Part shown: one piece after another, positions 36,735-51,015 of the stretch
Layout of the letters: each line of letters begins with the position of its first letter
Numbering within the stretch: the first letter of the stretch is position 1
Virus record (IMG/VR): IMGVR_UViG_3300042383_000546
Location: 1-64,000 of that record
DNA from: a virus
Reading direction: 5' to 3' (one strand)
Length of the DNA: 64,000 bases
Made by a program: the position numbers and the translations under genes
The notes under the pieces: generated by a model
What the model was told of the DNA's origin: nothing
Seen by the model: the letters and a program-made list of their open reading frames with translations, nothing else
Databases searched by the model: none

Positions 36735-37223
36735 TTATTTTATTAAGTTCTTAAAATTATTTTTATACTCAAAAGGTATGGTTGTCTTTATAAATCCACT
36801 TTCCACCTTCACATAGCCTTTTGCCTCAAAAGTCATATCTTTTGCTGCAATAGTCAGTGTTACTAAATTCACTAAATTACCTAGAACAAGTCTAGGGTCA
36901 AAGCTAAATCTATACGTTGCATCTGTAGTCTTTGCAGGTAAAACAACTATATCTTTCACATCGTTTACGTTACCTACTTTGATACCATTGATAGTAAAAT
37001 CAAGATACATTTCCTTAATGGTAGCCTCTACATTTGAAGCGTTATAGATTCTATTAGTAATGTCCAAAGATATGTTATCCATAGATATTTTAACAACTTT
37101 AAGACCTACTACTTGATAAGTAATATCCTTTAAGAAGTTAATCTGCTGCTTATAATAGCGAACAAGGGCATAACCTATTACGGCTAACCCTGATATTACT
37201 AATAGTGGTTTTAAATTTTTCAT
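36735..37223 (-). CDS. LEA_2/WHy-like beta-sandwich with N-terminal anchor
   Basis: TM, then IYNASNVEATIKEMYLDFTINGIKVG. Confidence 0.65.
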   Translation of the reverse strand: MKNLKPLLVISGLAVIGYALVRYYKQQINFLKDITYQVVGLKVVKISMDNISLDITNRIYNASNVEATIKEMYLDFTINGIKVGNVNDVKDIVVLPAKTTDATYRFSFDPRLVLGNLVNLVTLTIAAKDMTFEAKGYVKVESGFIKTTIPFEYKNNFKNLIK

Positions 37224-37822
37224 TTCTTGAAAATTAACGCAATTACTACGAGTGCACCTATGCCAATTCCACCGTAAATTAATAAATTTTTGTTTACTCC
37301 ACCTACAGTTTTTGTATCACCTCCCATATCAAGACCAACTAAATCACCTTTTGCTTTGTTCACGCTAGTATCTGATACGGTTGTAAGGGTATCTAAGAGG
37401 TCTTTCCTTTCTTTTTCTTTCTTTTCGGCTTCAGCTTTATTTACGCAATCATACTGATTTCTAAGCATTTTTGCATTAGCTTCTGCCTCAATTGCAAACT
37501 TTCTTTGAATAGGTAATTCAAAAGCATTACTTGAAGCCATGAGCTTTGTAATTCTTTCTCTTTCTACCATAGCGTCTTGAAGTAGTAAATCAATACCTCC
37601 ACAGGTTTTTGTATCATATCTAGCCCACTTTGCTTTAGCGTCTTTCTCTACTTGAGCAATAGACTCTTTACGCTTTTTGCTACCAAATAGGCTATAAAAC
37701 TGCTCTTCACCTGTAAAACAAGCATATCCATTAGTTTTTTCGTCTACAAAGCATCTGTCGTTACCTACTCTTGAAGGAGCTAGAGCACTAAGCTCATTAT
37801 TTTCAATCATGTCTATAGCCAT
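37220..37822 (-). CDS. membrane protein, C-terminal anchor
   Basis: LLIYGGIGIGALVVIALIFKK; contains FTGEEQFY. Confidence 0.7.
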   Translation of the reverse strand: MAIDMIENNELSALAPSRVGNDRCFVDEKTNGYACFTGEEQFYSLFGSKKRKESIAQVEKDAKAKWARYDTKTCGGIDLLLQDAMVERERITKLMASSNAFELPIQRKFAIEAEANAKMLRNQYDCVNKAEAEKKEKERKDLLDTLTTVSDTSVNKAKGDLVGLDMGGDTKTVGGVNKNLLIYGGIGIGALVVIALIFKK

Positions 37823-37831
37823 AACCTTATT

Positions 37832-38341
37832 TTATATTGTGTATTTAATCTTTTTAGCAGCCCAATCCTTATTTATGTTACTTACTCTATAAGAGGTTAA
37901 GCCAAAATATTCGTTACCTAATTCCTTCTTAACATAAGTCAATAAGTCCATTTTATCACCCACAGGTATACCAAAAGCATAGTCCTGACGGCTACCAAAT
38001 GATTTAATGAGTTTGGCAACATCTAGGTCATTTTTCATTTTTTTCAATGAATCTTGAACTGCAGCATAGTCATCACCAACGGCAAATCTCATGCTATTGT
38101 ATATAGTATTAGCCAAAGTATCATATGTGCTATCGGGATAACTAGCCTTTTGAAATCTTTGTAGATTTGAAATTTCGCTGTTTATGTTTCTACCTAGTTC
38201 AGCGTTTCTTTTTGCCTCTTCCGAAGGAAATACAATCGTGTAAAGTTTCTTACCAACGAAAAATAGGGCTGCAGCACCGCCAACTACAACGATACCTTTA
38301 GCCCATTGAGGTAAATCTTTATAATACTGATATACTTTCAT
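37832..38341 (-). CDS. membrane-anchored protein with an annexin-like repeat
   Basis: LANTIYNSMRFAVGDDYAAV...KNDLDVAKLIKSFG. Confidence 0.5.
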   Translation of the reverse strand: MKVYQYYKDLPQWAKGIVVVGGAAALFFVGKKLYTIVFPSEEAKRNAELGRNINSEISNLQRFQKASYPDSTYDTLANTIYNSMRFAVGDDYAAVQDSLKKMKNDLDVAKLIKSFGSRQDYAFGIPVGDKMDLLTYVKKELGNEYFGLTSYRVSNINKDWAAKKIKYTI

Positions 38342-38351
38342 AATATTTTTT

Positions 38352-38606
38352 TTATCTTACTGCCCTACCACCCTTAGTATTAATAGTTTTACCATTATAC
38401 TCAAATGTAGGTATATTGTTTTTTGCTGCTTTAGACCAAACTCTTAAAAAAGCCATGTCAAACTTTTTAAGGTCTTCTAACGTTCCCGTACTAGCGTCCG
38501 CTTTTTTGATTGCTCTAGCATAAGCATTTTTAGAGAAATACATATAGTAAGCTCCATAAGCTACTACTGCGTAAAGACCAACGTAAAAAACTAATTTTTT
38601 ATTCAT
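38352..38606 (-). CDS. small membrane protein, N-terminal anchor
   Basis: KKLVFYVGLYAVVAYGAYYMYF. Confidence 0.7.
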   Translation of the reverse strand: MNKKLVFYVGLYAVVAYGAYYMYFSKNAYARAIKKADASTGTLEDLKKFDMAFLRVWSKAAKNNIPTFEYNGKTINTKGGRAVR

Positions 38607-38615
38607 AACTTTTTT

Positions 38616-39140
38616 TTATATATACCTAAATTTATATCCGCTACAAGATTTAGATACACCTCTTAAATTCTGACTTATTGCAGTAGCAGAAACACCAAAT
38701 TCTTTAGATGTTTCTTTTATGCCATTACAAAATCTAATATGATTACCTTTTAAATCCATTTGCTCAAATTTAACTCTTAAAAGTAATCCGTTTTTACTTG
38801 TATCAATTAATTTATTTTTTATGGCATGGACAATTTGCTCTCTATGAGTAGCCCATTCTAAATTTTCAACTCTATTGTCTTTCTTATTACCATTAATATG
38901 ATTCACAGTTGGTTTTCCATCAGAATTTTCTATAAATGCTTCAGCAACTAACCTATGAGCAAAAACTAATTTCACACCATCTTCATTTCTAATTTTACAT
39001 TTTATATAGCCTCTAACATTAGTACCATTAACTTTTACCCAATTGCCCTCAAGGTTTTTTTGACATAAAGATTTACTATATACATTTCCATGAATATCTA
39101 CCTTATAGTTCGGGTATTTGTATACAATTTTGTCTTCCAT
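38616..39140 (-). mobile_element. free-standing HNH homing endonuclease (NUMOD4-HNH-NUMOD1 type)
   Basis: YPNYKV..HGNV; HRLVAEAF...VNHINGNKKDNRVENLEW. Confidence 0.9.
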
Positions 39141-39147
39141 CTTATAA

Positions 39148-39951
39148 TTAATTGCCTGAAGCGTAAACGTCTTTAATATTATATTCAGCTATATAGTCCT
39201 TAATAAACTTATCGATGATTTGGTATCTTATTTTATTTTCGGGACTAGGAAACCCTATAAATGTTTCTCCAAATGCAGCATAAGCCTCCTTGATTGGATA
39301 GCCTAAGCCTAAATATATTGTAAGACCGTTTAAGTCTGCTTCAGTTTCGTTTGCTATATCACTATTCACATAGTAGTGGCTAAACTCATGGAGTAAAATT
39401 GCCATTCTCATAGGAATAGTAAAAGGCACAAAGGCTTCCTGAGAAACTTGTATTCTACCATTTTTTGTGCTGATACGAGCAGGTGTAGCCATTTTCTGAC
39501 CTTTACTGCTAATAATAAAAGGTAAATATTCAATTTTGAAATTACCTGCAGCACTTACATAATCTTTTTTAGAAGATAACGAACCTGCATTATAACAGAA
39601 CTTTTGAGCAAAAGCAACGAAGTTTCTTACAAGTGGAGTGTCCATTTTGGTTTTACCCAAAGTAATATCTAGCTCCTCTCTTTTTACTTCTAGTACTTCA
39701 AAAGTAGGGTCTTCACCCTTTTTCTTATTACCATTCTTTTCATTATAGATGTCCAAAATACAAGTGTTTGGAGCTAAAGGCATCCTAACATATAATTCTT
39801 GAGTTCCATCTATTGTTTTAGTTCTATTGGTAAAATAGGTATTAGCCTGACCCTTATCATACACCTTTAATACAATAACTTGAGGACTAGTCGTTTTCAC
39901 TACTACCTTCACTTTGCAGGGGGCAAATCTCGTCCACAGGTTATATTGCAT
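39148..39951 (-). CDS. zincin-like metalloprotease (candidate maturation protease)
   Basis: ILLHEFSHY...NETEAD (HExxH plus downstream ExxAD). Confidence 0.7.
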   Translation of the reverse strand: MQYNLWTRFAPCKVKVVVKTTSPQVIVLKVYDKGQANTYFTNRTKTIDGTQELYVRMPLAPNTCILDIYNEKNGNKKKGEDPTFEVLEVKREELDITLGKTKMDTPLVRNFVAFAQKFCYNAGSLSSKKDYVSAAGNFKIEYLPFIISSKGQKMATPARISTKNGRIQVSQEAFVPFTIPMRMAILLHEFSHYYVNSDIANETEADLNGLTIYLGLGYPIKEAYAAFGETFIGFPSPENKIRYQIIDKFIKDYIAEYNIKDVYASGN

Positions 39952-40246
39952 CAGTATACAATGGGGTTTTTATTTTATCAGGATTTATACGACTTCTACG
40001 TTTTTGAGACTCCATAGCTTTTTCTTTTACCGCCTTACTAGCTTGTACGGGAGGTAACACAACTTCAAAATCTCTTAAAAAAGCATTCGTATACTTTGAA
40101 GATTCTACGTTTGTAGCATCAGCAATAACTTCTTTTACTTCAGCGTCTGTCATTAAACTAGCAGAAGGTTTTTTGAAACCTCTGTAATATAAGTGAGCAG
40201 CAATACCGCCTACTAAAACTCCAATAAGTACATCACCTATTTTCAT
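39941..40246 (-). CDS. small membrane protein, N-terminal anchor
   Basis: VLIGVLVGGIAAHLYY. Confidence 0.65.
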   Translation of the reverse strand: MKIGDVLIGVLVGGIAAHLYYRGFKKPSASLMTDAEVKEVIADATNVESSKYTNAFLRDFEVVLPPVQASKAVKEKAMESQKRRSRINPDKIKTPLYTDAI

Positions 40247-40247
40247 A

Positions 40248-40547
40248 TTATTTCTTTTTCATGATTTGACGAGCTACTACAGCTAACAAAATAATACCAC
40301 CCACGATATATAAAGTCTTTACAGGCATTCCTAAAACTGTTTTTCCCATGTCTTTTTCTTTAGTTTTAAATTTATTTAAAGTTAAATTAATTTCTTGATT
40401 TAACCCATCATTCAAAGGGAAAATCCCTTTTGTTTTTTCTCTTGTAAGCCACTCAGAGAAATTGAGTGTACCGCCATCTTCTTTGTAAATTTTGAAAAGC
40501 TGATTTGCGGTTAGTGTCTTGTCCAAATCAATTTGACTTTCTGCCAT
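40248..40547 (-). CDS. small membrane protein, C-terminal anchor
   Basis: LYIVGGIILLAVVARQIMKKK. Confidence 0.7.
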   Translation of the reverse strand: MAESQIDLDKTLTANQLFKIYKEDGGTLNFSEWLTREKTKGIFPLNDGLNQEINLTLNKFKTKEKDMGKTVLGMPVKTLYIVGGIILLAVVARQIMKKK

Positions 40548-40555
40548 ATTTATGT

Positions 40556-41005
40556 TTATTTTTTGAATAAGTACAAAGAAGAAGCAAAACCTATCATGTT
40601 ATTACCATCTTCAGAAACTTGATACCAACCTGCAACCTGAGAAGGACTGCCGTAAAGGGTACTTCCGTTTGCTATCTTCTTCACTATTTCAGACTTTGCA
40701 CTTGGGGTCTTTCTAATATTTAGATTACTACCTAGTGTTTTAACCTGAAGGGCTTGTTTTGAGCCTGTGTTTAAGAATAAAGCAGCTAATGGATTTGTAA
40801 GTGCTAGATTAGCAGATACAAGTGCCTTTTTTTGCTCATCTGTTAATTCAGTAGATGTTGAAGCTGTAGGGTCAATAGTTATAGTTTCTCCTTCAACTTT
40901 TGGAGCATCTTTTTTGCCGAATAGCTTTCCTCTAAAAGCATAGAGTAAACCACCTACAGCTAATACACTTGCAACCCCGATTAATATTTTTGTATTCTTT
41001 TCCAT
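40556..41005 (-). CDS. membrane-anchored bacterial SH3 (SH3b) domain protein
   Basis: N-terminal TM; NLNIRKTPS..S.IV...GWYQV...GFASS.YL. Confidence 0.8.
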   Translation of the reverse strand: MEKNTKILIGVASVLAVGGLLYAFRGKLFGKKDAPKVEGETITIDPTASTSTELTDEQKKALVSANLALTNPLAALFLNTGSKQALQVKTLGSNLNIRKTPSAKSEIVKKIANGSTLYGSPSQVAGWYQVSEDGNNMIGFASSLYLFKK

Positions 41006-41006
41006 T

Positions 41007-41408
41007 TTATTTGTGTTCTATTAGTAATTCACCTAATACTTCTATTCTACCAACCTTTTTTTGAAAGTCAATTTGCCCGATACTCATGTCCTGAATACCA
41101 TTATTTACTTCACTAATCAAACCTTTAAGTTCCTTTTCAGCTTCAGCAAAATCTAATTTTCCTTCAGCAGCACTTTTATAGTAGGGCTCTTTGACATCAA
41201 AATGATAGTAAGTCAGCATTGATAGTCCACCTTTTTCTTTAGCGTTTTCTGCAATCTTCATAGCACCCTCTCCCCTTTTTTTAGAGAAGTCTTCAAGTTG
41301 TTTGTCTGTGCTCTGAGTACTCTGCTTTTTATTTTTATTCATAATTAAATAGGTTAAGCCCAATAGACCTAACCCACCTAATATGAATACTTTTGTGTTT
41401 TGTTCCAT
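41007..41408 (-). CDS. small membrane protein, N-terminal anchor
   Basis: N-terminus MEQNTKVFILGG resembles MEKNTKILIG of the adjacent gene. Confidence 0.65.
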   Translation of the reverse strand: MEQNTKVFILGGLGLLGLTYLIMNKNKKQSTQSTDKQLEDFSKKRGEGAMKIAENAKEKGGLSMLTYYHFDVKEPYYKSAAEGKLDFAEAEKELKGLISEVNNGIQDMSIGQIDFQKKVGRIEVLGELLIEHK

Positions 41409-41635
41409 TATTCTTCTACTTTAGGTAGTAATAACTGAGATACCAAACCACCAATAATAGCTCCTATAAACGCTGAAGAGACTAAATTGTACTGACGAGA
41501 ATAACCTATTAAAAGACCACCTGCCATTCCAATAAAGCCTCCTGTTATAGTGCCTTTTGTTTTTTTCAAAGCCATACTATCAGACTTTGATTTAAGCTCT
41601 TTAGCTTTTTGTAATAGTTCTGATGCTTCAGCCAT
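41408..41635 (-). CDS. glycine-zipper membrane protein
   Basis: GGFIGMAGGLLIG...AFIGAIIGGLV. Confidence 0.7.
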   Translation of the reverse strand: MAEASELLQKAKELKSKSDSMALKKTKGTITGGFIGMAGGLLIGYSRQYNLVSSAFIGAIIGGLVSQLLLPKVEE

Positions 41636-41646
41636 TTTTTATTTTT

Positions 41647-41748
41647 TTATTTTTGACCGCTCTTCCAACTTCTAGAAACTACATAAACAGTAACACCTAG
41701 TGCTACAAGTCCTAAAGCATACGCTAGTAAATTTTTTCCGTTTTTCAT
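41647..41748 (-). CDS. 33-aa membrane peptide (not in ORF track)
   Basis: MKNGKNLLAYALGLVALGVTVYVVSRSWKSGQK; fills the gap between genes; paralogue at 50314. Confidence 0.7.
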   Translation of the reverse strand: MKNGKNLLAYALGLVALGVTVYVVSRSWKSGQK

Positions 41749-41751: not shown

Positions 41752-42150
41752 TTATGGATTGAATTGTGATAAAATCGTTTTTCTAGGTCTATTCTTTGGT
41801 GCACATCTACAAGCATCTTGGATATTTGTAGGAGCACCGCCCGTTGCATTCATAAACATTGGTGCACCAACACCTCTGTCATAAATGTTAGGTATTAAAT
41901 TCTGAGAACTCATGTAAATTGGAGGTTTAACACCACTACCCAAAGCACTAACGGTTACAGGGTTTGCAGTTAAACCACTTGATGGCTGCTGAGGTGGAGG
42001 TTTAAGGTCAGGAATACCTACAATGATTGGAGGATTTTCATTTTTTAAATCTGAAACCTTAACTTCTTTTTTCTTACTATAATATCTTAAAGCAAGTATA
42101 GTTGCTACTATCCCCGCTCCAAACCATAGTATTTTATTATCTGTTGCCAT
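41752..42150 (-). CDS. Pro-rich membrane protein, N-terminal anchor
   Basis: ILWFGAGIVATILALRYY. Confidence 0.65.
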   Translation of the reverse strand: MATDNKILWFGAGIVATILALRYYSKKKEVKVSDLKNENPPIIVGIPDLKPPPQQPSSGLTANPVTVSALGSGVKPPIYMSSQNLIPNIYDRGVGAPMFMNATGGAPTNIQDACRCAPKNRPRKTILSQFNP

Positions 42151-42152: not shown

Positions 42153-42854
42153 TTAGTTAGTTTTTTTAGCTTTTACAATAAGGTATATAGCTGTGATTGC
42201 TACTAACACACCCGCACCAATTATGATGTAAGTGGTAGCACTAGTTTTCTTACTAGGTGTACCCATGTTTGCTCTTAGCTCATCTTGTTGTGCTTGTAAG
42301 GCTGCAGCTTGATTACTAATGTTATTGGCATCAGCTTGAGTCTTGTTATTGATTTTATTTAAACCAATTTGAATACCTGCATTGATTGTATCTTGACTAG
42401 TAAGTGCTTTACCAATGTTTGCTAATAGTAAACCTACTCCTGTCTTTCCTTGAGGATTGTCGGCTGTAACTCTACTTTGTTTTTTAGCAGCAGCAGCTTG
42501 AGCAGCAGCAGCTTTTTTTGCAGCTCTTTCAGCAGCAGTCATATTATAAAAATCATCTGCTCCTGTGAATTGAAAATCGTCAATCCCTGTAAATCCAAAA
42601 TCCTGTGAGCTACCAACAAATGATAATGTTTCACCTGCCTCTTTAACTTTTTCTGTTAGAAAAGTAGACAACTCATTTTTGAAGTTTGGACTTTTAGCTG
42701 AAGCCATAAGTACGGCAATAGTAACTTCTTTGTCAGAAGGATTGTTACCTACTACAACTCCGTTTCTTTTAAGTAATCTAACTAGACCATCTTTATCAGT
42801 AACTACAGCGTATGATAACGCTTCTTCTGTTACTTGTAGTGCACTTACTGCCAT
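42153..42854 (-). CDS. membrane protein, C-terminal anchor, with repeated FTG-acidic motifs
   Basis: FGFTGIDDFQFTGADDFY; YIIIGAGVLVAITAIYLIVK. Confidence 0.7.
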   Translation of the reverse strand: MAVSALQVTEEALSYAVVTDKDGLVRLLKRNGVVVGNNPSDKEVTIAVLMASAKSPNFKNELSTFLTEKVKEAGETLSFVGSSQDFGFTGIDDFQFTGADDFYNMTAAERAAKKAAAAQAAAAKKQSRVTADNPQGKTGVGLLLANIGKALTSQDTINAGIQIGLNKINNKTQADANNISNQAAALQAQQDELRANMGTPSKKTSATTYIIIGAGVLVAITAIYLIVKAKKTN

Positions 42855-43180: not shown

Positions 43181-43603
43181 TTATTTTTTAGTTGTTATGA
43201 TAGCGAAAGCAATTAATACCGCTCCTGCAAACATTAACATACCTGTTTCCGAAGTTAATTTTTTATTGTCAGCAACTTGTTGTGCTGCTTGAGCTTGAAG
43301 CTGACCTGAGAAATTCATGTAAGATTCAAGAATATTTTTATTTGGATTTGAAGCGGTACAAGTACAGCCATCAGGCTTTTTACCATACTTCTTCTCGAAG
43401 TAGTCCATGAACAATTCTTTGTCAGGGTTATTTTCGATAATTTCCATTAATACGGGTTCGCCCTCGTAGGACACGAGTTGCTGTAAAACCGAAGAAAGAG
43501 GTTGGTCTCTGTCAAATTCGTAGCCATGTCTATGTGCCAACGATTTCACAAAATATGGATTCGCTGCAGCGGTGTATGCGTATATGTTTACATTACTCGA
43601 CAT
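43181..43603 (-). CDS. small membrane protein, C-terminal anchor
   Basis: MLMFAGAVLIAFAIITTKK; ATG at 43603. Confidence 0.7.
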   Translation of the reverse strand: MSSNVNIYAYTAAANPYFVKSLAHRHGYEFDRDQPLSSVLQQLVSYEGEPVLMEIIENNPDKELFMDYFEKKYGKKPDGCTCTASNPNKNILESYMNFSGQLQAQAAQQVADNKKLTSETGMLMFAGAVLIAFAIITTKK

Positions 43604-43629
43604 GATATGCAATTTAATGAATTAAAAGT

Positions 43630-43694: not shown

Positions 43695-44393
43695 TTAACG
43701 AGCAGCAGGTCTGATAATCTTTGGACTACCGTATTGCTTAGAAACAGGGTCTCCGTTTAAGCCACGAGCAATATTGATGTTATCAGAAGGGTAGAATTGG
43801 AACTGAACACTTGAACTTGCGAACATAGTGAAAGTCAATTTAGTGAAGCCATCGATACGGAAAGGTTGTTTCAATTCGATAACACCACTTTGGTTCTGAT
43901 AAGGGTCAATTACAGGTGTCAAGATTTTAACAGCTTGGTTACCGTTAGCGTCTTGAGTAGTTAAAGTAATCGGTTGTAACACTTGACTTGTTGTACCATT
44001 TACAGAAGAAATCAAAGTAGAACCGATTGTGAAAGGGCTTACACTTGATTGGTTAAGTAAGTTGTAATAAGTTGTGTTAGAAAGGTTAGACGTAATGGTT
44101 ACGTTGTTTACAGTTAAAGAACCTGCAGAGAAACCTGCATTGTTCAAGTAAACGTAAGCACCAAATACATCTACAGATACTGCAGCGTTTGAAGCGTTAG
44201 ATACTGTGATGATGTAAGGCTGAGACTTCATCATACCTGCTGATGCCATTGGAGCTACTGCAGGTGCTGCGTCAGCAGCGAAGAAATTGTCTGCCCCTGT
44301 AAAATAGGTTTCGTCTGCGAAACCATCTACACCAATAAACTGCTCGTTAATAGAGCGGTTAGCTTGTTGTAAGTACTTTTGAATACTAGACAT
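43695..44393 (-). CDS. candidate major capsid protein (beta-rich, jelly-roll-like)
   Basis: 232 aa, no TM, no Cys, alternating beta pattern, frequent TTC/AAC/ATC/CGT codons; near the ATPase; followed by its own terminator. Confidence 0.55.
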   Translation of the reverse strand: MSSIQKYLQQANRSINEQFIGVDGFADETYFTGADNFFAADAAPAVAPMASAGMMKSQPYIITVSNASNAAVSVDVFGAYVYLNNAGFSAGSLTVNNVTITSNLSNTTYYNLLNQSSVSPFTIGSTLISSVNGTTSQVLQPITLTTQDANGNQAVKILTPVIDPYQNQSGVIELKQPFRIDGFTKLTFTMFASSSVQFQFYPSDNINIARGLNGDPVSKQYGSPKIIRPAAR

Positions 44394-44793: not shown

Positions 44794-45615
44794 CTATCCT
44801 ATATACTGAGCAAGTAGCCTTCTTTTAACTTCAGCTCTTGCCGTATTATCATTATATTTTTTCTTATTCTTTTCGTCTTTGAGCACCAAATAAGGATTTG
44901 TAAGAGCTCTAAAGTTTTCGCTAATATATTGCTCTACTGCATCTTCAATCATTTCTTGGCTATAGTTACCTCTGATGTTTGATTCGTCCATGTCCACATA
45001 ACAGTAAAACCTCTTGTTGCCTGAATCGTACTGAGTGTTTACCATGATTTCGGCAATACGCATATACTCAAACTTATCAGGGAATTTATTTTTATGCCTT
45101 TCAACTGATTCGACATTCTTATGAAATCTTAATTGGTTTAGATTACCCCAAAGTTTAGTAACAATTCTGCCAATAGACTGATAAGACAGAATAATGTCTA
45201 AGCCAACGTGACGATTGGTAGCAATAGCACCAACTAAATCAGAAGGCATATGGTCACCGATAAATTTAGAAGGGTCTTCAATGACCAAAAGTCCATTTTT
45301 AAAAGTGCTTAATACATAGAACAAAGCCTGAGCCCATTCGTCTAGTGTCATTCTAGTTCCGTTGGGGTGGAAAGGTCTTATCCTTCTAACTTCTACATGA
45401 GGGTGAACAGTAAAAAGACCTACGTCATTAAGCGACAAAGCTCTGATTCCAAATACTCCATACTCATCGTTTACGTCCATTACAAGAGCCTTACGACCTT
45501 TAATGCCATGATAAGGGTCTCCTTCTACATATTTGTTTATGGTAATCATGTGAGCCCAAGTTTTTCCCACACCTTTTTTACCAACTGCTGCCATCAATAA
45601 AGGTTCTCTTCCCAT
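44794..45615 (-). CDS. FtsK/HerA-superfamily genome-packaging ATPase (A32/P9-like)
   Basis: Walker A GKKGVGKT, Walker B LLVIED, Arg finger NRH, sensor SYQ; no nuclease domain. Confidence 0.8.
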   Translation of the reverse strand: MGREPLLMAAVGKKGVGKTWAHMITINKYVEGDPYHGIKGRKALVMDVNDEYGVFGIRALSLNDVGLFTVHPHVEVRRIRPFHPNGTRMTLDEWAQALFYVLSTFKNGLLVIEDPSKFIGDHMPSDLVGAIATNRHVGLDIILSYQSIGRIVTKLWGNLNQLRFHKNVESVERHKNKFPDKFEYMRIAEIMVNTQYDSGNKRFYCYVDMDESNIRGNYSQEMIEDAVEQYISENFRALTNPYLVLKDEKNKKKYNDNTARAEVKRRLLAQYIG

Positions 45616-45906: not shown

Positions 45907-47034
45907 TTAATCTAGTCCTTGCATTTGTGGATTTGGTTTCTCTTTCCCGTCTTTGTCCGTTTCTCTCAAAATTATTGCTTCAGCTATTTCACTTTCGTCA
46001 ATGTTATTGATATAATCTTTTGGTCTACGACCTCTTTTACCACCTGTCTTTCTACTTTTCATAGCCTCTTGATATGAGCTATTGCCACCATTTGCTTTTG
46101 CTGCATTTTCACTCCAAATCTTCTCCTTAGCTCTTTGTTCCATGAGCTTTGCTTTACCCGTTGAAGGAACTTTGTGTTCCGTTACAGTTGAGTTTATTAC
46201 CGCCTCATTTGAGTTGAAATTATCAAACTCTTGAGTTGCTTCATAAGTTGGTGTAGGTGTCGGGGTTGGTGTAGGCTTTGGTGCAGATGGTTTAGGTGTT
46301 GGTACAGCCCCGCTAGATTTAATAGCTGCAGTATTTTCTACTAAAGCATTAATCAAATCATTTGCAGTAGATTTCATTTGATAAATGAGAACACTCTTAA
46401 CTGCAATATCTTTACCAAAAGCAAAGAGTACATACTGCTCATCAGTCATACCCGCACCTCTTTTTTCTAGTATTCTTACTAGTGGAGGTTTAACGTCTTT
46501 TTTGAACTCTTTAGAAACAACTAAAGTGTCTTTTGTTTGGTTGTTAAACTCTTCAATAAACTCACCTGCAGAAATAGTAGAACCATCTGCCGTTGGCACT
46601 TGAATAGATAAATCTAATTCACCTTCAGCTTGAAGTTTTTTAATTCTTTTTTCAGGAATTTTCAGGAACATATTTCCCCATGAGTTGATTTGCTCATAGG
46701 TATCTAATATGATTGTAGCTAAGTGTTCTGCACCTGCTTTCTTTTCTGCATCAGTTGCTTGATTCATGGCAGGGTTTACAGGAGCTGATTCGTTTCTACG
46801 ATTACCTCCACCGCCACCATCACCGCCTAGCATATCGTATGGGTTATCTCTAGTATTTATTGACTGAGGTTGAAAAGAAGGCTCAGGAATAATAGTAGAT
46901 AATCGGTCTTGAGAAACAAAACCTGTTGGCTGACTATATGGTTTATCATTTACGTTGTCACTAAAGGGCATAAACTCCCTTTTAGGTTCTGTAAATGTTT
47001 GCTGATTTTGTTGCTGTTCAGTCTGATTTTCCAT
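45907..47034 (-). CDS. hypothetical protein upstream of the ATPase, with a Pro/Thr linker
   Basis: 375 aa; PTPKP repeats; KRGRRPK. Confidence 0.65.
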   Translation of the reverse strand: MENQTEQQQNQQTFTEPKREFMPFSDNVNDKPYSQPTGFVSQDRLSTIIPEPSFQPQSINTRDNPYDMLGGDGGGGGNRRNESAPVNPAMNQATDAEKKAGAEHLATIILDTYEQINSWGNMFLKIPEKRIKKLQAEGELDLSIQVPTADGSTISAGEFIEEFNNQTKDTLVVSKEFKKDVKPPLVRILEKRGAGMTDEQYVLFAFGKDIAVKSVLIYQMKSTANDLINALVENTAAIKSSGAVPTPKPSAPKPTPTPTPTPTYEATQEFDNFNSNEAVINSTVTEHKVPSTGKAKLMEQRAKEKIWSENAAKANGGNSSYQEAMKSRKTGGKRGRRPKDYINNIDESEIAEAIILRETDKDGKEKPNPQMQGLD

Positions 47035-47039
47035 GATGG

Positions 47040-47459
47040 TTATTTGTTTAATAGTATTTTATCTAGTTTGTCTTTTATTTTTAAATAGGGTATATCCGAT
47101 TTGTACTTAGGGTTCAAAGACTCAATCAGAATTTTGTATTTACTGATATTGGTCTTATGCCTAGATATGAAAATGGTATCACTAATATCTCTTATAGTCA
47201 TACTTTTATAAAGATAGTAAACGCAAAAACCCACCGCAAACTTGTTATCACCTCTAGCGTACTTAGCATACAGCAAAGATTCTACGTCCATGCTAAATGC
47301 CTGTGAAACTGAGTTTAATACCAAATTTATGTATGGGTCATCAAAAGAGGTTACTTGACCATCTTCTATTGTGAGAGCAGCCATTGTTTTGTCATATCCA
47401 TTTTTCTTAAAATAGCTGACAAAAGTCTCAAGAGCTGTAAATGTATTATCAAGATTCAT
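47040..47459 (-). CDS. DnaA C-terminal-like helix-turn-helix protein
   Basis: VSQAFSMDVESLL...CVYYL...MTIRDIS..F..RHKTNI. Confidence 0.5.
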   Translation of the reverse strand: MNLDNTFTALETFVSYFKKNGYDKTMAALTIEDGQVTSFDDPYINLVLNSVSQAFSMDVESLLYAKYARGDNKFAVGFCVYYLYKSMTIRDISDTIFISRHKTNISKYKILIESLNPKYKSDIPYLKIKDKLDKILLNK

Positions 47460-47501
47460 GGTTATTTTTTATTGAACAAATGTATTTATTTTATCTCAAA
47501 T

Positions 47502-47903
47502 TTACCAACCTGAAATTATATTTTTTAATTTACCGCCATTTTGTTTAAACCACTCTTTGCCTATCACTCTTAGCTTTACATCAGGGTGATATTTAGCCAT
47601 CCTTTTAATCTTTGTTGCTGACTTTGCATCCATGTAGCCCTTTATTTCAATCCATTCCTCTGAGCCACTAGGAAAAATGACCATAAAATCAGGTTTATAG
47701 TTATTTGTTCCCCTCTTTATTGCCTCAAACCAAAAGGTCTTAGGTTCGTGCTGCCATTCAATTATATGACCATGCTTTTTCATAAACTCCAAATACAAAG
47801 CATATCTATATTCCCATCTGCTTCTATAAAAGTTTCTTTTACCACCAATTTCAGCCCAATCTTGTTTCCAAGTGGACTTACCGTCTTTTAAGTGTATTTG
47901 CAT
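47502..47903 (-). CDS. PD-(D/E)xK endonuclease (DUF1064/resolvase-like)
   Basis: RSRWE...YKPDF...IEIKG. Confidence 0.8.
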   Translation of the reverse strand: MQIHLKDGKSTWKQDWAEIGGKRNFYRSRWEYRYALYLEFMKKHGHIIEWQHEPKTFWFEAIKRGTNNYKPDFMVIFPSGSEEWIEIKGYMDAKSATKIKRMAKYHPDVKLRVIGKEWFKQNGGKLKNIISGW

Positions 47904-48544
47904 TATAGTCCGTATCTAGCTTTGAAATCTCTGTCTTTTATGATAGTTTCAACACAATAAAGTGAGAAATCGTTATCTGAAGGATAGTGAAGACCCAAAT
48001 AAATTCTTGAGTATTCAATGTCCTTAGCCAAAGAATCAAAATAGCCAAACTTCTCAGGGAAGTGATTGCCTAGTACATGGCAAATCAAGGCTGCCTGAAA
48101 TGTATGACCTGCAGGATATGAGGGTGTTTCAGCCGAAACTGAACTAAAAGGGAATAGTTTTAATTTGTAGTGCTGTGCTAACTGATAAGGTCTTGGACGC
48201 TGAAAATGGTACTTTAATTTAAGTATCACAGGCAGACTTTCGTCTATTAGACTATCTACTAGTTCTATGCCTTTGTCCCCTAGTTCCTGATTTATAATAA
48301 CACTAGCAAATATTCTTTCAATAGAAGGGTCGTATGACCTATATCTTTTGAGAGCCTCTTCGTCAGCTTTTACATCACCGATATAATCTACTACTTCGTT
48401 TAATTCCTCTCTAGTAGCTTTTGAGCTATTCAAAGGGAAACCAAACTTGATTAATTGAGGCAAATGTTTATCTAAAGGGCTTTCAACCTCTAAATAAGGT
48501 AATTGCCTTTGTGTTGGATTGCCATAGGTTATAGAATCAAGCAT
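47903..48544 (-). CDS. PAP2-superfamily phosphatase
   Basis: KYHFQRPRP, PSYPAGH, SRIYLGLHYPSD. Confidence 0.9.
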   Translation of the reverse strand: MLDSITYGNPTQRQLPYLEVESPLDKHLPQLIKFGFPLNSSKATREELNEVVDYIGDVKADEEALKRYRSYDPSIERIFASVIINQELGDKGIELVDSLIDESLPVILKLKYHFQRPRPYQLAQHYKLKLFPFSSVSAETPSYPAGHTFQAALICHVLGNHFPEKFGYFDSLAKDIEYSRIYLGLHYPSDNDFSLYCVETIIKDRDFKARYGL

Positions 48545-48578
48545 AATTGTTTATGGTTATTTTGTGTTTTTATATTTT

Positions 48579-49007
48579 TTATTTTTTTACCCACCTGTTA
48601 GGTCTGTATACCGTTTGTACCGCTTGTAAACCATTTCCTCTTGATTCGGGAGCAGTAAATTTATAAACTCCAAATTGAGTAGTTAAAGTATCACCTAACG
48701 TTGGTTTACCACCTACTGAATACTTTTTCATGGCAGCACTTTCAAAGGCTAAAACCTCTTCTTTGCTATCCATCATACCACCATAAAGATTACTAAATAC
48801 CCTATTTGATGGAATTACAGATGGTTCTCTACTAGGTAGCTTAATACCTCCACCTCCACTTCTAACTACTTCTTCGTAAGTGAGACCGCCTCTATTATCT
48901 TGAGGCTGAGTAACTACACCTTGACCTTTTTGTCCTCTCATCTTGTAGACATAAAATGCTACTGCACCTAAGCCTAAAGCAATTAGAATCTTTTGATTTG
49001 TTGTCAT
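48579..49007 (-). CDS. membrane protein, N-terminal anchor
   Basis: ILIALGLGAVAFYVYK. Confidence 0.7.
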   Translation of the reverse strand: MTTNQKILIALGLGAVAFYVYKMRGQKGQGVVTQPQDNRGGLTYEEVVRSGGGGIKLPSREPSVIPSNRVFSNLYGGMMDSKEEVLAFESAAMKKYSVGGKPTLGDTLTTQFGVYKFTAPESRGNGLQAVQTVYRPNRWVKK

Positions 49008-49223
49008 TTATTTTCTGTTTTTCAAGTAATTATTTCCGTTGTATATAAGTGTAGAAAGTCCTAAAATGAATAAACCAACCCTTATTGGATTGGATAAACT
49101 CTTTTGACTAGCTACATAAAAACAAAAGGGTGAAATTACAAATACGTCTACAAGTCTTATCTGCTGAACAGATAAAAATGGACTATAAGTTGTACTAGTT
49201 TCTTTTTTTGTCATATTATCCAA
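49008..49223 (-). CDS. small two-helix membrane protein
   Basis: IRLVDVFVISP...TLIYNGNNY. Confidence 0.65.
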   Translation of the reverse strand: MDNMTKKETSTTYSPFLSVQQIRLVDVFVISPFCFYVASQKSLSNPIRVGLFILGLSTLIYNGNNYLKNRK

Positions 49224-49605
49224 GTCTCATAACGGGTCTTCTGCCTCTTGAGCCTGAAGCGTTTACTTCTGCTGTTTTCTTTGCAGCAAGAGCAGCACTT
49301 TCCAACTTACCGATTCTTTCAATCACGTCATTGTAAGCACTCTTTTCCATAGCCATCATGAGCCTGAAATATTGAATAGCATAAATACCAACACCCACTA
49401 TCAAAGCAGACACAGATACCTCTACTACGTTAATATCACCAAACCAAGCTCTGATACCGCCACCACTTGTTGTTTCACCGCCTTCTGCCATAGCAGGTGC
49501 AGGTGTAGGAGCAGGAGCAGCCATAGGCATGGGAGCTGCTGCAGGTGCAGGAGCGGGTGTGCTTACGGGTGCAGGAGGGGCACTATTTTCTATTGTTGTA
49601 TTCAT
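49216..49605 (-). CDS. membrane protein with a Pro/Ala leader ending in MAEGG
   Basis: PAPAMAEGGETT, then a TM segment. Confidence 0.7.
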   Translation of the reverse strand: MNTTIENSAPPAPVSTPAPAPAAAPMPMAAPAPTPAPAMAEGGETTSGGGIRAWFGDINVVEVSVSALIVGVGIYAIQYFRLMMAMEKSAYNDVIERIGKLESAALAAKKTAEVNASGSRGRRPVMRLG

Positions 49606-49606
49606 T

Positions 49607-50170
49607 TTAATCTTTTTTCTTTTTAGCTACTAAGTAAATGCCTAGTGCAACGAGTAGTAACCACCAATAACTCTTCTTTTTCTCAACAGGTGCAGCATCT
49701 TCACTACCACCGCCTCCACCACCGCCCATAGGTCTAATTCCTAGATTGGTTGAAGGTAAAATAGGAATAACGGGAATTGCAGGGACTACTACGTTTGTAT
49801 CAGGTTTTGGAGCTGCCGTTGTAGTACTAGTAGTTGTGCTAGTCGTACTATCTTCAGGTCTATTACAATACCTTTGAAACATATCATAAGCAGCCATTGT
49901 TTCATTAGGAGTTGCTGCCCCACCGCCATTTGTAGAAATAAACGTTGCTAAATCGGCACAAAAGGTAGGAGAGCCAAGTTGAGGTAACTGCATACGAGAA
50001 CCCGTACCGCCACCTAGATTGTCTTTAGTTGTATCGTTGGGATTTGATGGGTCACCTTCTAAGCCCACAAATTCAGACTTACCCGTACCAATATCATAAG
50101 AGTGATTTCGAGGTTTTACGAATTTATCTTCTCCCTCAAATACAATGACCTTTTCTTTCCTTTTTGCCAT
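49607..50170 (-). CDS. membrane protein with Thr tract and C-terminal anchor
   Basis: STTSTTTSTTT; YWWLLLVALGIYLVAKKKK. Confidence 0.7.
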   Translation of the reverse strand: MAKRKEKVIVFEGEDKFVKPRNHSYDIGTGKSEFVGLEGDPSNPNDTTKDNLGGGTGSRMQLPQLGSPTFCADLATFISTNGGGAATPNETMAAYDMFQRYCNRPEDSTTSTTTSTTTAAPKPDTNVVVPAIPVIPILPSTNLGIRPMGGGGGGGSEDAAPVEKKKSYWWLLLVALGIYLVAKKKKD

Positions 50171-50175
50171 AATGC

Positions 50176-50295
50176 TTATTTTAATTGGGCTGCAGCTCTT
50201 TTAATAGCGTCAGTCCATTTTTCCCCTTGTTTGCGGATTTTCTTAGCCAATTTAGCAATATCTGCTACATTGATTTTCTTTTTAGCTGTTGCCAT
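50176..50295 (-). CDS. 39-aa basic peptide, possibly DNA-condensing (not in ORF track)
   Basis: MATAKKKINVADIAKLAKKIRKQGEKWTDAIKRAAAQLK. Confidence 0.65.
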   Translation of the reverse strand: MATAKKKINVADIAKLAKKIRKQGEKWTDAIKRAAAQLK

Positions 50296-50313
50296 TTTTA
50301 TATTTTTTAGTGA

Positions 50314-50421
50314 TTATTGACCACTTTTCCAAGCAGAACTGATTACTCTTACGGTTACATAAAGAACCAATAAACTTAAACCAACTCCTACTGCTGTAGA
50401 TACGATACCTTTCTTTTCCAT
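50314..50421 (-). CDS. 35-aa membrane peptide (not in ORF track), paralogue of 41647..41748
   Basis: MEKKGIVSTAVGVGLSLLVLYVTVRVISSAWKSGQ. Confidence 0.7.
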   Translation of the reverse strand: MEKKGIVSTAVGVGLSLLVLYVTVRVISSAWKSGQ

Positions 50422-50493
50422 GATTTTTATTTTTTAGATTTAAAAATAAGTTGTATAAAATTAGCAATTATTTCTAATTACCTATATTTTTTT

Positions 50494-51015
50494 TTATTTA
50501 GCTGTCACGTTTCCACCAAAGCTGCCTTTACCTCCAAAGAAAGCGTCATCCCAAAAGGTTTCTTCGTTTCCTGTGAATGGTTTGTACTCAAATACGTCAA
50601 AACCTGCACTTTGAGGTATATCCCACACCTTTTTAGCTATTGCATCTTCATTACCTGTAAATGAGTGTACATCGTCTTTATTCCTTAGTATTTTGTCTAC
50701 TAAGCCTCTTTTGAGGATTTCTATTCTGTCAAAATAACGCTGCCCGTTTGGCTGAATAGAAGTACCGAACCTTACACCCCAATCATAAGCTATAAGATAA
50801 CTAGACTCACCTCTAAGCACAAATGGCTTACCATTTATTGTTAAATAAGCAATTCCCTTACTATAGTCAATGCTATCAATCGTAATCTTAGGAGACCATA
50901 TGTTGTTTTTATAAAAGGTGTAAAGACCAAAAACAGCCACAACACCTGTAGATATTGCTGCTATCCTTAGAAATGTACTATTTGCTTTGCTTAGTTTACT
51001 TGTTAAATCTGACAT
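50494..51015 (-). CDS. membrane protein with two FTGNE motifs
   Basis: N-terminal TM; start at 51015 avoids overlap with the lysin gene. Confidence 0.65.
   Translation of the reverse strand: MSDLTSKLSKANSTFLRIAAISTGVVAVFGLYTFYKNNIWSPKITIDSIDYSKGIAYLTINGKPFVLRGESSYLIAYDWGVRFGTSIQPNGQRYFDRIEILKRGLVDKILRNKDDVHSFTGNEDAIAKKVWDIPQSAGFDVFEYKPFTGNEETFWDDAFFGGKGSFGGNVTAK

What the first reader, a model, noticed from the sequence alone, without database searches (positions are those of the whole stretch)
37220..51015. A second shared peptide motif, F-[TV]-G followed by acidic/aromatic residues, in otherwise unrelated structural proteins
Seen: FIGVDG and YFTGADNFF in the capsid N-terminal leader; FVG, FTGIDDF and FTGADDFY in 42153..42854; FTGNED and FTGNEETFW in 50494..51015; FTGEEQFY in 37220..37822; FEGEDKF and FVGLEG in 49607..50170; MNFSG in 43181..43603. 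Inference: a common maturation cleavage site or assembly tag for capsid and membrane proteins, analogous to poxvirus AG|X processing and distinct from the GG motif.
Basis: partly seen in the sequence, partly recalled or inferred. Interest (0 to 1): 0.72.

Follow-up and report, generated by a model that had tools for sequence, protein, structure and literature searches.

The report
Shared docking peptide in virion proteins
An uncultured 84-kb tailless-type bacterial virus carries the same short peptide (Phe-Thr-Gly, two acidic residues, then aromatic residues) in the flexible arm of its probable shell protein, in several membrane proteins and at the tip of a fibre, which most likely marks them for one common assembly partner.

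Summary
FTG.[DE][DENQ].?F occurs 5 times against 0.01 expected (0 of 2000 shuffles). It survives local-window shuffles and uses different codons in each copy. All six FTG.[DE] hits lie in a block holding 18.6% of the residues.

The motif is conserved in place: 119 of 120 homologues of the 42153 protein, and 83 (strict) or 105 (loose) of 120 homologues of the 37220 protein. It is also kept in the jelly-roll protein leader of 46 of 48 related loci. In that protein it lies in a segment AlphaFold leaves disordered.

My best reading is a multivalent docking or assembly tag read by one viral partner. Tandem copies, its 8-10-residue length and its position at residues 4-12 of the fibre argue against a simple cutting site. 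Cleavage by the conserved resident gluzincin (39148-39951) is neither shown nor excluded. No poxvirus- or adenovirus-type protease was found.

The scan noted a related motif on another genome (e1-6098660, unchecked), and the virus lineage several times.

The parts
43695..44393 (-). 232-aa single jelly-roll protein, the probable major shell protein. Its N-terminal arm (residues 1-56, 44226-44393) has an amphipathic helix at 2-17, then motif copies FIGVDGF (44319-44339), FTGADNFF (44280-44303) and a degenerate FFAADA, then an Ala/Pro linker and the conserved SQPYI start of the barrel.
   Evidence: AF2 with 124 sequences gave pLDDT 86.7, with residues 20-40 below 50 and the jelly roll at 57-220. 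Fold matches are weak only. The family has 549 clusters at 50% identity. Leader columns are conserved across 124 sequences.
42153..42854 (-). 233-aa C-tail-anchored membrane protein with three to four tandem motif copies: FVG-x3-DFG-FTGIDDF-Q-FTGADDFYN (42543-42620).
   Evidence: The strict motif is present in 119 of 120 homologues at 49-98% identity, and the columns F88 T89 G90 D92 D93 F94 F96 T97 G98 F102 are near-invariant.
37220..37822 (-). 200-aa C-tail-anchored membrane protein carrying FTGEEQFY (37694-37717), followed by the conserved NLFGS in homologues.
   Evidence: The strict motif is in 83, and the loose motif in 105, of 120 homologues at 34-97% identity. G38 is kept in 115 of 117 and F42 in 117 of 119.
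50494..51015 (-). 173-aa protein with an N-terminal membrane anchor, carrying FTGNED (50644-50661) and FTGNEETFW (50551-50577) near its C-terminus.
   Evidence: Orthologues in 9 loci keep FTG/FTA...NE[EQ].[FY]W.
49607..50170 (-). 187-aa protein with a hydrophobic, Lys-tailed C-terminus, carrying FEGEDKF (50120-50140) and FVGLEG (50054-50071). These are weaker forms of the motif.
   Evidence: FEGEDKF is kept in the 4 closest loci only, and orthologues were found in 6 of 48 loci.
43181..43612 (-). 143-aa C-tail-anchored core protein directly after the shell-protein gene, carrying YMNFSG (43304-43321). This is the family-wide form: aromatic-x-[N/G]-[A/F]-[S/T/D]-G.
   Evidence: Found in 44 of 48 loci. 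The same alignment column reads YMNF[ST]G, Y[LM]NA[ST]G or F[LM]GADG.
35265..36011 (-). 248-aa collagen-like fibre protein whose N-terminus (residues 4-12, 35976-36002) is FLGTDYFGF.
   Evidence: Pfam Collagen (E 3.7e-07) and tail-fibre PHROGs. The N-terminal motif is kept as FLGTDSFGF, FLGGDSFSL or FLGADGFGF in relatives.
41752..42150 (-). 132-aa protein carrying FMNATG (41839-41856), a possible further carrier of the N-A-x-G form.
   Evidence: In this genome that form is only weakly enriched (11 against 5.6 expected; 18 of 1000 shuffles reached it).
39148..39951 (-). 267-aa resident zinc metallopeptidase candidate. It has an N-terminal beta-sandwich (1-93) and a gluzincin domain (106-257) with HEFSH (39376-39390) and E202-x-E-A-D206.
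   Evidence: Present in 42 of 48 loci; five of the six without it are cut-off loci and the sixth, L052, is a different kind of element. H188 E189 H192 E202 E204 D206 are invariant in 31 sequences. AF2 pLDDT is 90.0. VIA-align gave E. coli BepA/YfgC at Z 7.7 (rmsd 4.1, 120 aligned) and 3c37 at Z 6.1. No Pfam, NCBIfam or PDB sequence match.
44794..45615 (-). 273-aa P-loop ATPase next to the jelly-roll gene, the presumed packaging motor. It is context only and carries no motif.
   Evidence: Present in 46 of 48 loci. The Walker A GKKGVGKT is visible. No Pfam, PHROG, NCBIfam or PDB sequence match.

Best explanation
The motif is a short linear docking peptide, an assembly tag. Its strict form in this clade is F-T-G-x-[D/E]-[D/E]-F-[F/Y]-(N-[A/L]). 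The family-wide form is aromatic-x-[G/N]-[A/V]-[D/S/T]-G-aromatic.

It sits in flexible segments of the shell protein's N-terminal arm, of the cytoplasm-facing parts of several single-pass membrane proteins, and at the extreme N-terminus of a collagen-like fibre. One viral partner reads it. The most likely partner is a pocket on the jelly-roll capsomer, or else a dedicated adaptor.

Through this shared peptide, viral membrane proteins, shell subunits and the fibre are brought together when the shell forms on the virus-specific membrane. Tandem copies would give avidity.

Shown: the motif is real, confined to the morphogenesis block, selected at the peptide level, conserved in place in three unrelated protein families, and disordered in the shell protein.

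Inferred: that it binds something, what it binds, and the membrane topology.
For: 1. Enrichment and block restriction. FTG.[DE][DENQ].?F occurs 5 times against 0.01 expected and survives local shuffles. All 6 FTG.[DE] hits and 9 of 12 F[TVIL]G.[DE] hits lie in a block holding 18.6% of residues (binomial 4.2e-05 and 3.4e-05).

2. Peptide-level selection. Gly, Asp and Phe codons differ between copies, and the carriers share nothing else.

3. Conservation in place. The motif is in 119 of 120 homologues of 42153 and in 83 (strict) or 105 (loose) of 120 homologues of 37220. Each of the 13 close loci has 4-6 hits against at most 0.10 expected. The shell-protein leader keeps FTG(x)DDFF in 33 of 35 more distant loci at 43-57% identity. 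Across 124 family members the leader columns hold aromatic 19, G24 (97 of 113), aromatic 25 (89 of 93), F31, A40 and D41.

4. Disorder. Residues 20-40 of the shell protein have pLDDT below 50, between a helix and a confident barrel. In the membrane proteins the flanks carry indels while the motif stays fixed.

5. Multivalency. There are 2-4 tandem copies in the shell arm and in 42153. A relative has three YxN[LV][DE]GxFY copies (L036). Distant family members repeat the unit three times, for example W-Q-G-A-D-D.

6. Membrane bias. In close relatives 20 of 22 non-shell hits lie in proteins with a membrane span, which hold 37% of residues.

7. Position in the fibre. The motif is at residues 4-12. 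That is where fibres of adenovirus carry their capsid-attachment peptide (PMC8156859, passage read).

8. A distant relative on a 13.7-kb metagenome contig shows the same sharing: LSADGDDW in the shell protein, LSADGFY and FKADGTEYF in tail-anchored proteins.
Against: There is no binding evidence of any kind. AF2 does not dock the leader onto the protein's own barrel (pLDDT below 50).

The shell-protein role is itself inferred. The best solved-structure matches are weak (Z at most 5.9; Foldseek found none at E <= 0.001). The best BFVD matches include C1q-type heads of collagen-like proteins.

In the more distant clade the strict FTG form is almost confined to the shell protein: 34 of 37 hits. 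Sharing with other proteins is seen there only with a looser pattern, 23 against 9.8 expected.

The parallel change of the third position (G in this clade, N in the other) is effectively one evolutionary event, and the 43181 family does not follow it.

A fibre outside the shell and membrane proteins inside it would need the same pocket on different faces, or a different partner. A conserved protease sits in the same block.
Confidence: 0.45

Rival explanations
1. The motif is a maturation cleavage site. The resident gluzincin (39148-39951) recognises the motif, perhaps through its N-terminal beta-sandwich, and trims the shell-protein leader and the membrane proteins during maturation. In a combined version the peptide docks first and is then cut, as with adenovirus pVI.
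For: A metallopeptidase candidate with invariant HExxH and ExxxD lies inside the morphogenesis block in 42 of 48 loci, and five of the six loci without it are cut off. Its catalytic domain resembles the M48 protease BepA (Z 7.7, rmsd 4.1, 120 aligned). The motif lies in accessible, disordered segments. The distant relative L053 has both the motif and the zincin. Adenovirus offers a precedent in which precursor peptides are cut by the virion protease (PMC8156859, passage).
Against: No cleavage data exist. Tandem sites 8-12 residues apart, and a site at residues 4-12 of the fibre, would serve no evident purpose. The conserved core of 8-10 residues is longer than most protease sites. Co-occurrence of zincin and motif is uninformative because no locus has one without the other. 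The zincin's beta-sandwich resembles carbohydrate-binding modules (Z 7.1-7.8), so it may instead act on host surface glycoproteins at entry. The Z values are in the range the tool calls common.
Confidence: 0.2
2. The motif is a metal-bridged or homotypic 'glue'. The acidic-aromatic units bind Ca2+ or Mg2+ and the membrane interface, or zip onto each other. Shell arms and membrane proteins would then stick together without a separate receptor pocket.
For: The variable positions 3 and 5 are nearly always oxygen donors (N, D, S, T, E) and are followed by Gly. This is reminiscent of calcium-binding turns (recalled from memory, not tested). All partners carry the same unit, which a homotypic interaction explains most simply. 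The leader begins with a conserved amphipathic helix (Y7, F/L8, A11, A/V15).
Against: Position 1 is aromatic, not the Asp of EF-hand, dockerin or DxDxDG loops. No Pfam calcium-binding family matched the carriers at E <= 0.01. Proteins that already have a membrane span do not need a membrane-binding peptide.
Confidence: 0.15
3. The motif is read by a host factor. A bacterial chaperone, insertase, protease or cytoskeletal protein would bind it and deliver the carriers to the assembly site.
For: This is argued only by analogy. Short acidic-aromatic peptides are common handles for bacterial hub proteins (recalled). Carriers of very different kinds share the motif.
Against: The motif drifts between virus clades (G against N at position 3; FTGxDDF against xNADG; W-type repeats). 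That fits a co-evolving viral partner better than a conserved host one. The host is unknown: the one cellular-genome hit is a 16.9-kb contig of a metagenome bin labelled Gammaproteobacteria.
Confidence: 0.08
4. The motif is a chance or compositional artefact of acidic, aromatic-rich linkers.
For: The patterns were defined after looking at the data. Plain FTG alone is not significant (10 against 5.79; 148 of 2000 shuffles). The weakest listed instances are kept only in the closest relatives: FEGEDKF in all 4 of them (L003-L006) and FVGLEG (as FVGSDG) in only 2 (L005, L006).
Against: Local-window shuffles that keep local composition still give 5 against 0.01-0.02. The motif is conserved column by column in 120-member families while the flanks vary.
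Confidence: 0.02

Closest known systems
Capsid targeting sequence (CTS) of phage T4 internal proteins
   Same: A short conserved peptide is the only thing shared by otherwise diverse virion proteins, and it directs them into the assembling particle (PMC3012670, passages read).
   Different: T4 is a tailed phage with an HK97-type shell. Its CTS is N-terminal, targets the scaffolding core and is removed by the prohead protease (this last point is recalled, not read). Here the shell protein itself and membrane proteins carry the motif, often internally and in tandem. No HK97 capsid, Terminase_6N or S78 protease family was found in the record.
Adenovirus: fibre-tail FNPVYPY peptide, and precursor proteins VI and VIII cut by the virion protease AVP
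   Same: A conserved N-terminal fibre peptide binds a cleft of a jelly-roll capsid protein. Precursor proteins at the inner capsid surface are trimmed by a virion protease (PMC8156859, passages read). This is the best precedent for the combined 'dock, then cut' reading.
   Different: AVP is a cysteine protease with a short Gly-containing consensus (recalled). No Peptidase_C5 match was found here, although the control genomes did not ring either. The adenovirus fibre and precursor motifs differ from one another, whereas here one motif serves all carriers.
Poxvirus AG|X processing by I7L
   Same: A short motif is shared by several core and membrane precursors of a large DNA virus (recalled).
   Different: No Peptidase_C57 or C48 match was found. 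The motif here is longer, acidic-aromatic and tandem. No cleavage is shown.
Assembly of PRD1 and PM2-type internal-membrane phages
   Same: Soluble shell proteins assemble on a patch of host membrane enriched in phage membrane proteins, which calls for a link between coat and membrane proteins (PMC6356626, passage read). The gene content here fits: a jelly-roll protein, an adjacent ATPase, and 21 of 45 ORFs in the 35-56.7 kb stretch with a predicted membrane span.
   Different: I know of no shared peptide motif described for those phages (recalled; my searches found none). This genome is far larger, the shell protein is a single rather than a double jelly roll, and there is no sequence or confident fold match to their proteins.
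Endocytic adaptor motifs (FxDxF, DP[FW]) and encapsulin cargo-loading peptides. These are analogies of mechanism only, recalled from memory.
   Same: Multivalent short acidic-aromatic or Gly-rich peptides in disordered regions recruit cargo to a coat or shell.
   Different: These are unrelated systems and organisms. No homology is claimed or tested.

Membership tests
Cleavage motifs of viral clan-CE cysteine proteases (poxvirus I7L AG|X, adenain, Ulp1-like) | The virus encodes a protease of that clan | tested here: inconclusive
   PF00770, PF03290 and PF02902 gave no match in the 84,229-bp record. For the first two the control genomes rang nowhere, so absence is not shown. For PF02902 the control rang in 1 genome. 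The record is about 90% complete.
Cleavage motifs of viral clan-CE cysteine proteases (poxvirus I7L AG|X, adenain, Ulp1-like) | A short site with small residues at the scissile bond (A-G|X, G-G|X, XGX-G). This definition is recalled. | tested here: not met
   The conserved core is F-T-G-x-[DE]-[DE]-F-[FY], 8-10 residues, acidic-aromatic and often tandem.
Cleavage motifs of viral clan-CE cysteine proteases (poxvirus I7L AG|X, adenain, Ulp1-like) | Carriers are actually cut at the motif in mature particles | not testable with these tools
   There are no protein data. No cultured relative was found in the phage collection.
Capsid-targeting or docking short linear motifs (T4 CTS, adenovirus fibre tail) | One short peptide shared by otherwise unrelated virion-module proteins | tested here: met
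   The motif is conserved in three unrelated families.
Capsid-targeting or docking short linear motifs (T4 CTS, adenovirus fibre tail) | The motif lies in a flexible or terminal segment | tested here: met
   In the shell protein, residues 20-40 have pLDDT below 50. In the fibre it is at residues 4-12. In the membrane proteins this is inferred only, from indel-rich flanks.
Capsid-targeting or docking short linear motifs (T4 CTS, adenovirus fibre tail) | The motif binds a defined site and is needed for incorporation | not testable with these tools
Gluzincin metallopeptidases (for the resident zincin 39148-39951) | HExxH plus a downstream Glu in an ExxxD helix | tested here: met
   H188, E189, H192, E202, E204 and D206 are invariant in 31 sequences. 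Helices at 179-195 and 202-215 appear in the model.
Gluzincin metallopeptidases (for the resident zincin 39148-39951) | Membership of a curated peptidase family such as M48 | tested here: inconclusive
   No Pfam or NCBIfam match and no PDB sequence match. Fold likeness to BepA is Z 7.7 and to 3c37 Z 6.1; Foldseek gave 3c37 at E 1.2e-03. The Atlas lead DUF4344 scored 0.86, which is a lead only.
EF-hand, dockerin or RTX-type calcium-binding loops | Asp at loop position 1 and the canonical ligand spacing (recalled definitions) | tested here: not met
   Position 1 is Phe, Tyr or Trp in all carriers. No Pfam match was found for the carriers at E <= 0.01.
Sortase or exosortase-type C-terminal sorting signals | The motif lies directly before a C-terminal membrane span with a basic tail, on a protein with a signal peptide (recalled definition) | tested here: not met
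   The motif lies about 20-140 residues before the span in 37220, 42153 and 43181. It also occurs in carriers without any predicted span, namely the shell protein and the fibre. One source's automatic name 'LPXTG-motif cell wall-anchored protein' for homologue P0323 is not evidence.

The most novel reading that the evidence does not exclude
A lineage-wide peptide 'zip code' acts in two steps. The same 8-10-residue motif first tethers shell subunits, membrane proteins and the fibre to one reader, and is then trimmed by the virion gluzincin, whose beta-sandwich serves as the motif-binding exosite. This would be the first metalloprotease-driven, motif-addressed maturation system in a jelly-roll, membrane-lined bacterial virus. 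It would be functionally parallel to adenovirus maturation but built from unrelated parts.
Probability: 0.15. Interest if true: 0.8.

Novelty: new variant of a known kind. Interest (0 to 1): 0.6.

Why it matters
How the protein shell and the inner lipid membrane of tailless viruses find and hold each other is poorly understood, even for model phages. This virus belongs to a large uncultured family: the shell-protein family alone has 549 clusters at 50% identity, and related contigs run to about 100 kb.

The family marks the shell arm, several membrane proteins and a fibre with one conserved peptide. That gives a concrete, testable handle. A peptide of about ten residues can be synthesised, mutated, used for pull-downs, or modelled against the capsomer and the zincin. 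If it is a portable incorporation tag, it could also be used to load foreign proteins into such particles, as the T4 targeting sequence is.

Tried and rejected
Identity of the shell protein. Pfam, PHROGs, NCBIfam and a protein search of the phage collection gave nothing for the jelly-roll protein or the ATPase. Foldseek against PDB had no match at E <= 0.001. VIA-align gave only generic viral jelly rolls at Z no higher than 5.9. BFVD gave C1q-like and other jelly rolls at E from 3.5e-04 upward. So the 'capsid' label stays an inference.

Tailed-phage reading. No Phage_capsid, Terminase_6N or Peptidase_S78 was found in the record. Twenty larger ORFs gave methylases, glycosyltransferases, polyvalent-protein domains and RecT.

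Contexts of very distant family members with W-type leaders. P0257, P0239 and P0247 had no relatives in viral contigs. The single metagenome scan gave one 13.7-kb contig. A family alignment could not be used for a locus search.

Co-variation of position 3 (G against N) between the shell arm and the membrane proteins. It is suggestive for the ~200-aa tail-anchored protein. It amounts to one clade split and is not followed by the 43181 family, so I do not count it as a test.

N-glycosylation sequon reading of N-A-[ST]-G. Rejected, because the same column also holds D, E and N.

Sortase-like and calcium-loop readings are covered under Membership tests.

Host. There was only one hit, in a metagenome bin.

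Literature. Two searches for this virus group or such a motif found no description. The library is partial, and I did not ask for supplements.

Full report
WHAT THE WINDOW IS. The window is the first 64,000 bases of an 84,229-bp IMG/VR virus record, estimated about 90% complete. Genes between about 35 and 57 kb lie almost all on the minus strand. This stretch encodes a 232-aa protein (43695-44393), an adjacent 273-aa P-loop ATPase (44794-45615) and many small proteins. Of its 45 ORFs, 21 have a predicted membrane span.

The 232-aa protein has no Pfam, PHROG or NCBIfam family. It has no relative in the phage collection by protein search. It nevertheless belongs to a very large uncultured family: 525 proteins in the 90% clusters and 549 clusters at 50% identity.

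AlphaFold2 with 124 family members gives a confident single jelly roll at residues 57-220 (mean pLDDT 86.7). It is preceded by a helix at 2-17 and a segment at 20-40 with pLDDT below 50. Fold matches are weak and generic. Foldseek against PDB found none at E <= 0.001. The best VIA-align Z is 5.9, with plant-virus, PR772, PBCV-1, PM2, phiCjT23 and FLiP jelly rolls at 4.7-5.9. BFVD gives C1q-type and other jelly rolls.

No HK97 capsid, Terminase_6N or S78 protease family is found in the record. Twenty larger ORFs gave methylases, glycosyltransferases, polyvalent-protein domains and RecT. So 'major shell protein of a tailless, membrane-lined virus' is a reasonable inference, not a demonstrated fact. 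Earlier notes of this scan on other genomes reached the same reading. I treat those notes as leads only.

THE OBSERVATION. Over 117 ORFs (26,417 aa) of the whole record, the shuffle results are as follows:
- F[TVIL]G.[DE]: 12 observed against 2.20 expected.
- FTG.[DE]: 6 against 0.51.
- FTG.[DE][DENQ].?F: 5 against 0.01.
- None of 2000 within-protein shuffles reached any of these counts.
- Plain FTG is not significant (10 against 5.79).

Shuffling only inside 12-, 20- or 30-residue windows, which keeps local composition, does not change this. The block 35265-51100 holds 18.6% of all residues. It contains 9 of the 12 F[TVIL]G.[DE] hits and all 6 FTG.[DE] hits (binomial 3.4e-05 and 4.2e-05). By proteins the counts are 6 of 9 and 4 of 4 (hypergeometric 0.01 and 0.004).

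The copies use different synonymous codons, so this is not a DNA repeat. The carriers show no other similarity; the only low-E alignments start at the motif. I found two further carriers: the N-terminus of the collagen-like fibre protein 35265-36011 (FLGTDYFGF, residues 4-12), and FMNATG in 41752-42150.

CONSERVATION. This is the independent test, because the patterns were chosen after looking at the data.

In 13 IMG/VR loci whose shell protein is 79-97% identical, each locus has 4-6 matches of a fixed pattern against 0.00-0.10 expected. The matches fall in the orthologues of the same genes, at the same residues.

Among 120 database homologues of the 42153 protein (49-98% identity), 119 carry the strict motif. 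The stretch S-F-V-G-x3-D-F-G-F-T-G-[IV]-D-D-F-x-F-T-G-x-[DE]-[DE]-F-[FY]-N is nearly invariant, while residues on either side vary.

Among 120 homologues of the 37220 protein (34-97% identity), 83 carry the strict and 105 the loose form. G38 is kept in 115 of 117 and F42 in 117 of 119.

In 35 more distant loci (shell protein 43-57% identical), 33 keep S-F-T-G-(x)-[DE]-D-F-F in the shell-protein leader. The two without it are a cut-off locus and L052, a different kind of element.

Across 124 family members down to 28% identity, the leader has a fixed plan: an amphipathic helix (Y7, F/L8, A11, A/V15), then [FY]-x-[N/S/G]-[A/V/F]-D-G-[FWY], then F-x-G-D, then x-A-D-G, then a variable Ala/Gly/Pro linker, then S-Q-P-Y-I-I. 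Very distant members repeat a unit such as W-Q-G-A-D-D three times. The strict FTG motif of this clade is therefore one flavour of a family-wide unit: aromatic-x-[G/N/S]-[A/V]-[D/S/T]-G.

IS IT SHARED BEYOND THE SHELL PROTEIN IN OTHER CLADES? Partly.

In the distant clade, 34 of 37 strict hits are in shell proteins. A looser pattern is enriched in the other proteins: 23 against 9.8 +/- 3.0, with 0 of 200 shuffles reaching it, and 15 of the 23 hits in proteins with a membrane span. The N-A-x-G form is enriched five-fold over 1,114 distinct proteins (164 against 32.4 +/- 5.3). Those proteins include many homologues, so the count is not made of independent events.

The core tail-anchored protein directly after the shell-protein gene (43181 family, 44 of 48 loci) keeps YMNF[ST]G, Y[LM]NA[ST]G or F[LM]GADG in one alignment column. 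The next tail-anchored protein, about 200 aa long, carries YSNLDGDFY (three copies in L036), YANADGDY, YSNAEGF, FSNVDGPF or FSGMDGFY near residues 73-112. A very distant relative on a 13.7-kb metagenome contig has LSADGDDW in the shell protein, and LSADGFY and FKADGTEYF in two tail-anchored proteins.

The third position tends to be G in this clade and N in the other, both in the shell arm and in the ~200-aa protein. That is one clade split, and the 43181 family does not follow it, so I do not count it as proof of co-evolution.

THE RESIDENT PROTEASE CANDIDATE. ORF 39148-39951 is present in 42 of 48 loci; five of the six without it are cut-off loci and the sixth, L052, is a different kind of element. 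H188-E-x-x-H192 and E202-x-E-A-D206 are invariant in 31 sequences.

The AF2 model (pLDDT 90.0) has an N-terminal beta-sandwich at 1-93 and an alpha/beta domain at 106-257. The sandwich resembles carbohydrate-binding and GOLD-type modules (Z 6.6-7.8). The second domain resembles E. coli BepA/YfgC (Z 7.7, rmsd 4.1, 120 aligned) and the putative peptidase 3c37 (Z 6.1); Foldseek gave 3c37 at 1.2e-03. No curated family matches.

It is therefore probably an active gluzincin. Nothing links it to the motif except location. No adenain, I7L or Ulp1-type protease was found, with the caveat that two of the three controls rang nowhere.

HOW IT MOST LIKELY WORKS. The features are those of a short linear recognition peptide: it lies in disorder, shows strong local conservation within variable flanks, occurs in unrelated carriers, and stands in tandem copies.

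Three points favour docking over simple cutting:
- The conserved core is 8-10 residues long.
- Copies stand 8-12 residues apart.
- In the fibre the motif begins at residue 4. That is where fibres carry their capsid-attachment peptide in adenovirus (PMC8156859, passage), and where a cut would be pointless.

In PRD1-type assembly, soluble shell proteins gather on a membrane patch loaded with phage membrane proteins (PMC6356626, passage). A shared tag on coat, cargo and fibre, read by one partner, would serve that step. T4 shows that one short peptide can address diverse proteins to a nascent head (PMC3012670, passages).

I put docking at 0.45, cleavage by the zincin (alone or after docking) at 0.20, a metal-bridged or homotypic glue at 0.15, a host reader at 0.08 and artefact at 0.02. 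What binds the motif, and on which side of the membrane it lies, are inferences. By the usual rules, tail-anchored proteins keep their N-terminal part in the cytoplasm, the same compartment as the shell protein, but I could not test this.

LIMITS. The host is not established.

VERDICT. This is a new variant of a known kind of device, the virion-addressing peptide, in an undescribed virus lineage. Interest 0.6.

Noticed in passing
window 47903-48544 (-): This 213-aa core gene (44 of 48 loci) has a weak match, far below the cut-off, to an undecaprenyl-diphosphatase (PAP2-type) model (E 2.7e-04, 20.9 bits against a cut-off of 250). It has no predicted membrane span. It could be a lipid-phosphate enzyme of a membrane-containing virus.
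   Followed up: no
L053:1659-3242 (+): In a distant relative, a 527-aa protein just upstream of the shell-protein gene begins with an acidic-aromatic leader and a PYYIRLANN strand like the shell protein's SQPYI start. It then carries about seven repeats of a TDGGTTW-type unit before a C-terminal part. It looks like a shell-protein paralogue with an inserted propeller-like tower.
   Followed up: no
L043:9276-9977 and 10001-10702 (+): One relative has two tandem copies of the shell-protein gene, and both keep the full leader with the motif.
   Followed up: no
window 13359-13856 (-): This 165-aa distant paralogue of the jelly-roll protein matches its residues 102-201 (36% identity, E 7.3e-11). 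It lacks the leader and the motif, and lies next to a Thr-rich mucin-like protein at 12354-13355.
   Followed up: partly
window 37220-37822, 42153-42854, 43181-43612, 49607-50170 (-): All the C-tail-anchored carriers end in a Lys-rich tail right after the membrane span (FKK, KAKKTN, TTKK, KKKKD). The tail may face the packaged DNA. One source's automatic name for a homologue is 'LPXTG-motif cell wall-anchored protein' (P0323), probably because of this architecture.
   Followed up: no
window 38616-39140 (-): This 174-aa ORF inside the structural block is found in only 2 of 48 related loci. Its sequence (NHINGNKKDNRVENLEW) recalls HNH-type homing endonucleases (recalled from memory). NCBIfam gave no match.
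   Followed up: no
L054 (GTDB contig CAUYTX010000366.1, 16.9 kb): The only cellular-genome hit to the shell protein (80% identity) is a short contig in a metagenome bin labelled Gammaproteobacteria. It is probably a viral contig binned with a cell, so it is weak evidence for the host.
   Followed up: no
window 39148-39426 region (residues 1-93 of the zincin): The zincin's N-terminal beta-sandwich resembles carbohydrate-binding modules and a Bacteroides surface glycan-binding protein (7kwc, Z 7.8, rmsd 2.3, 86 aligned). This suggests an alternative role on host surface glycoproteins.
   Followed up: partly
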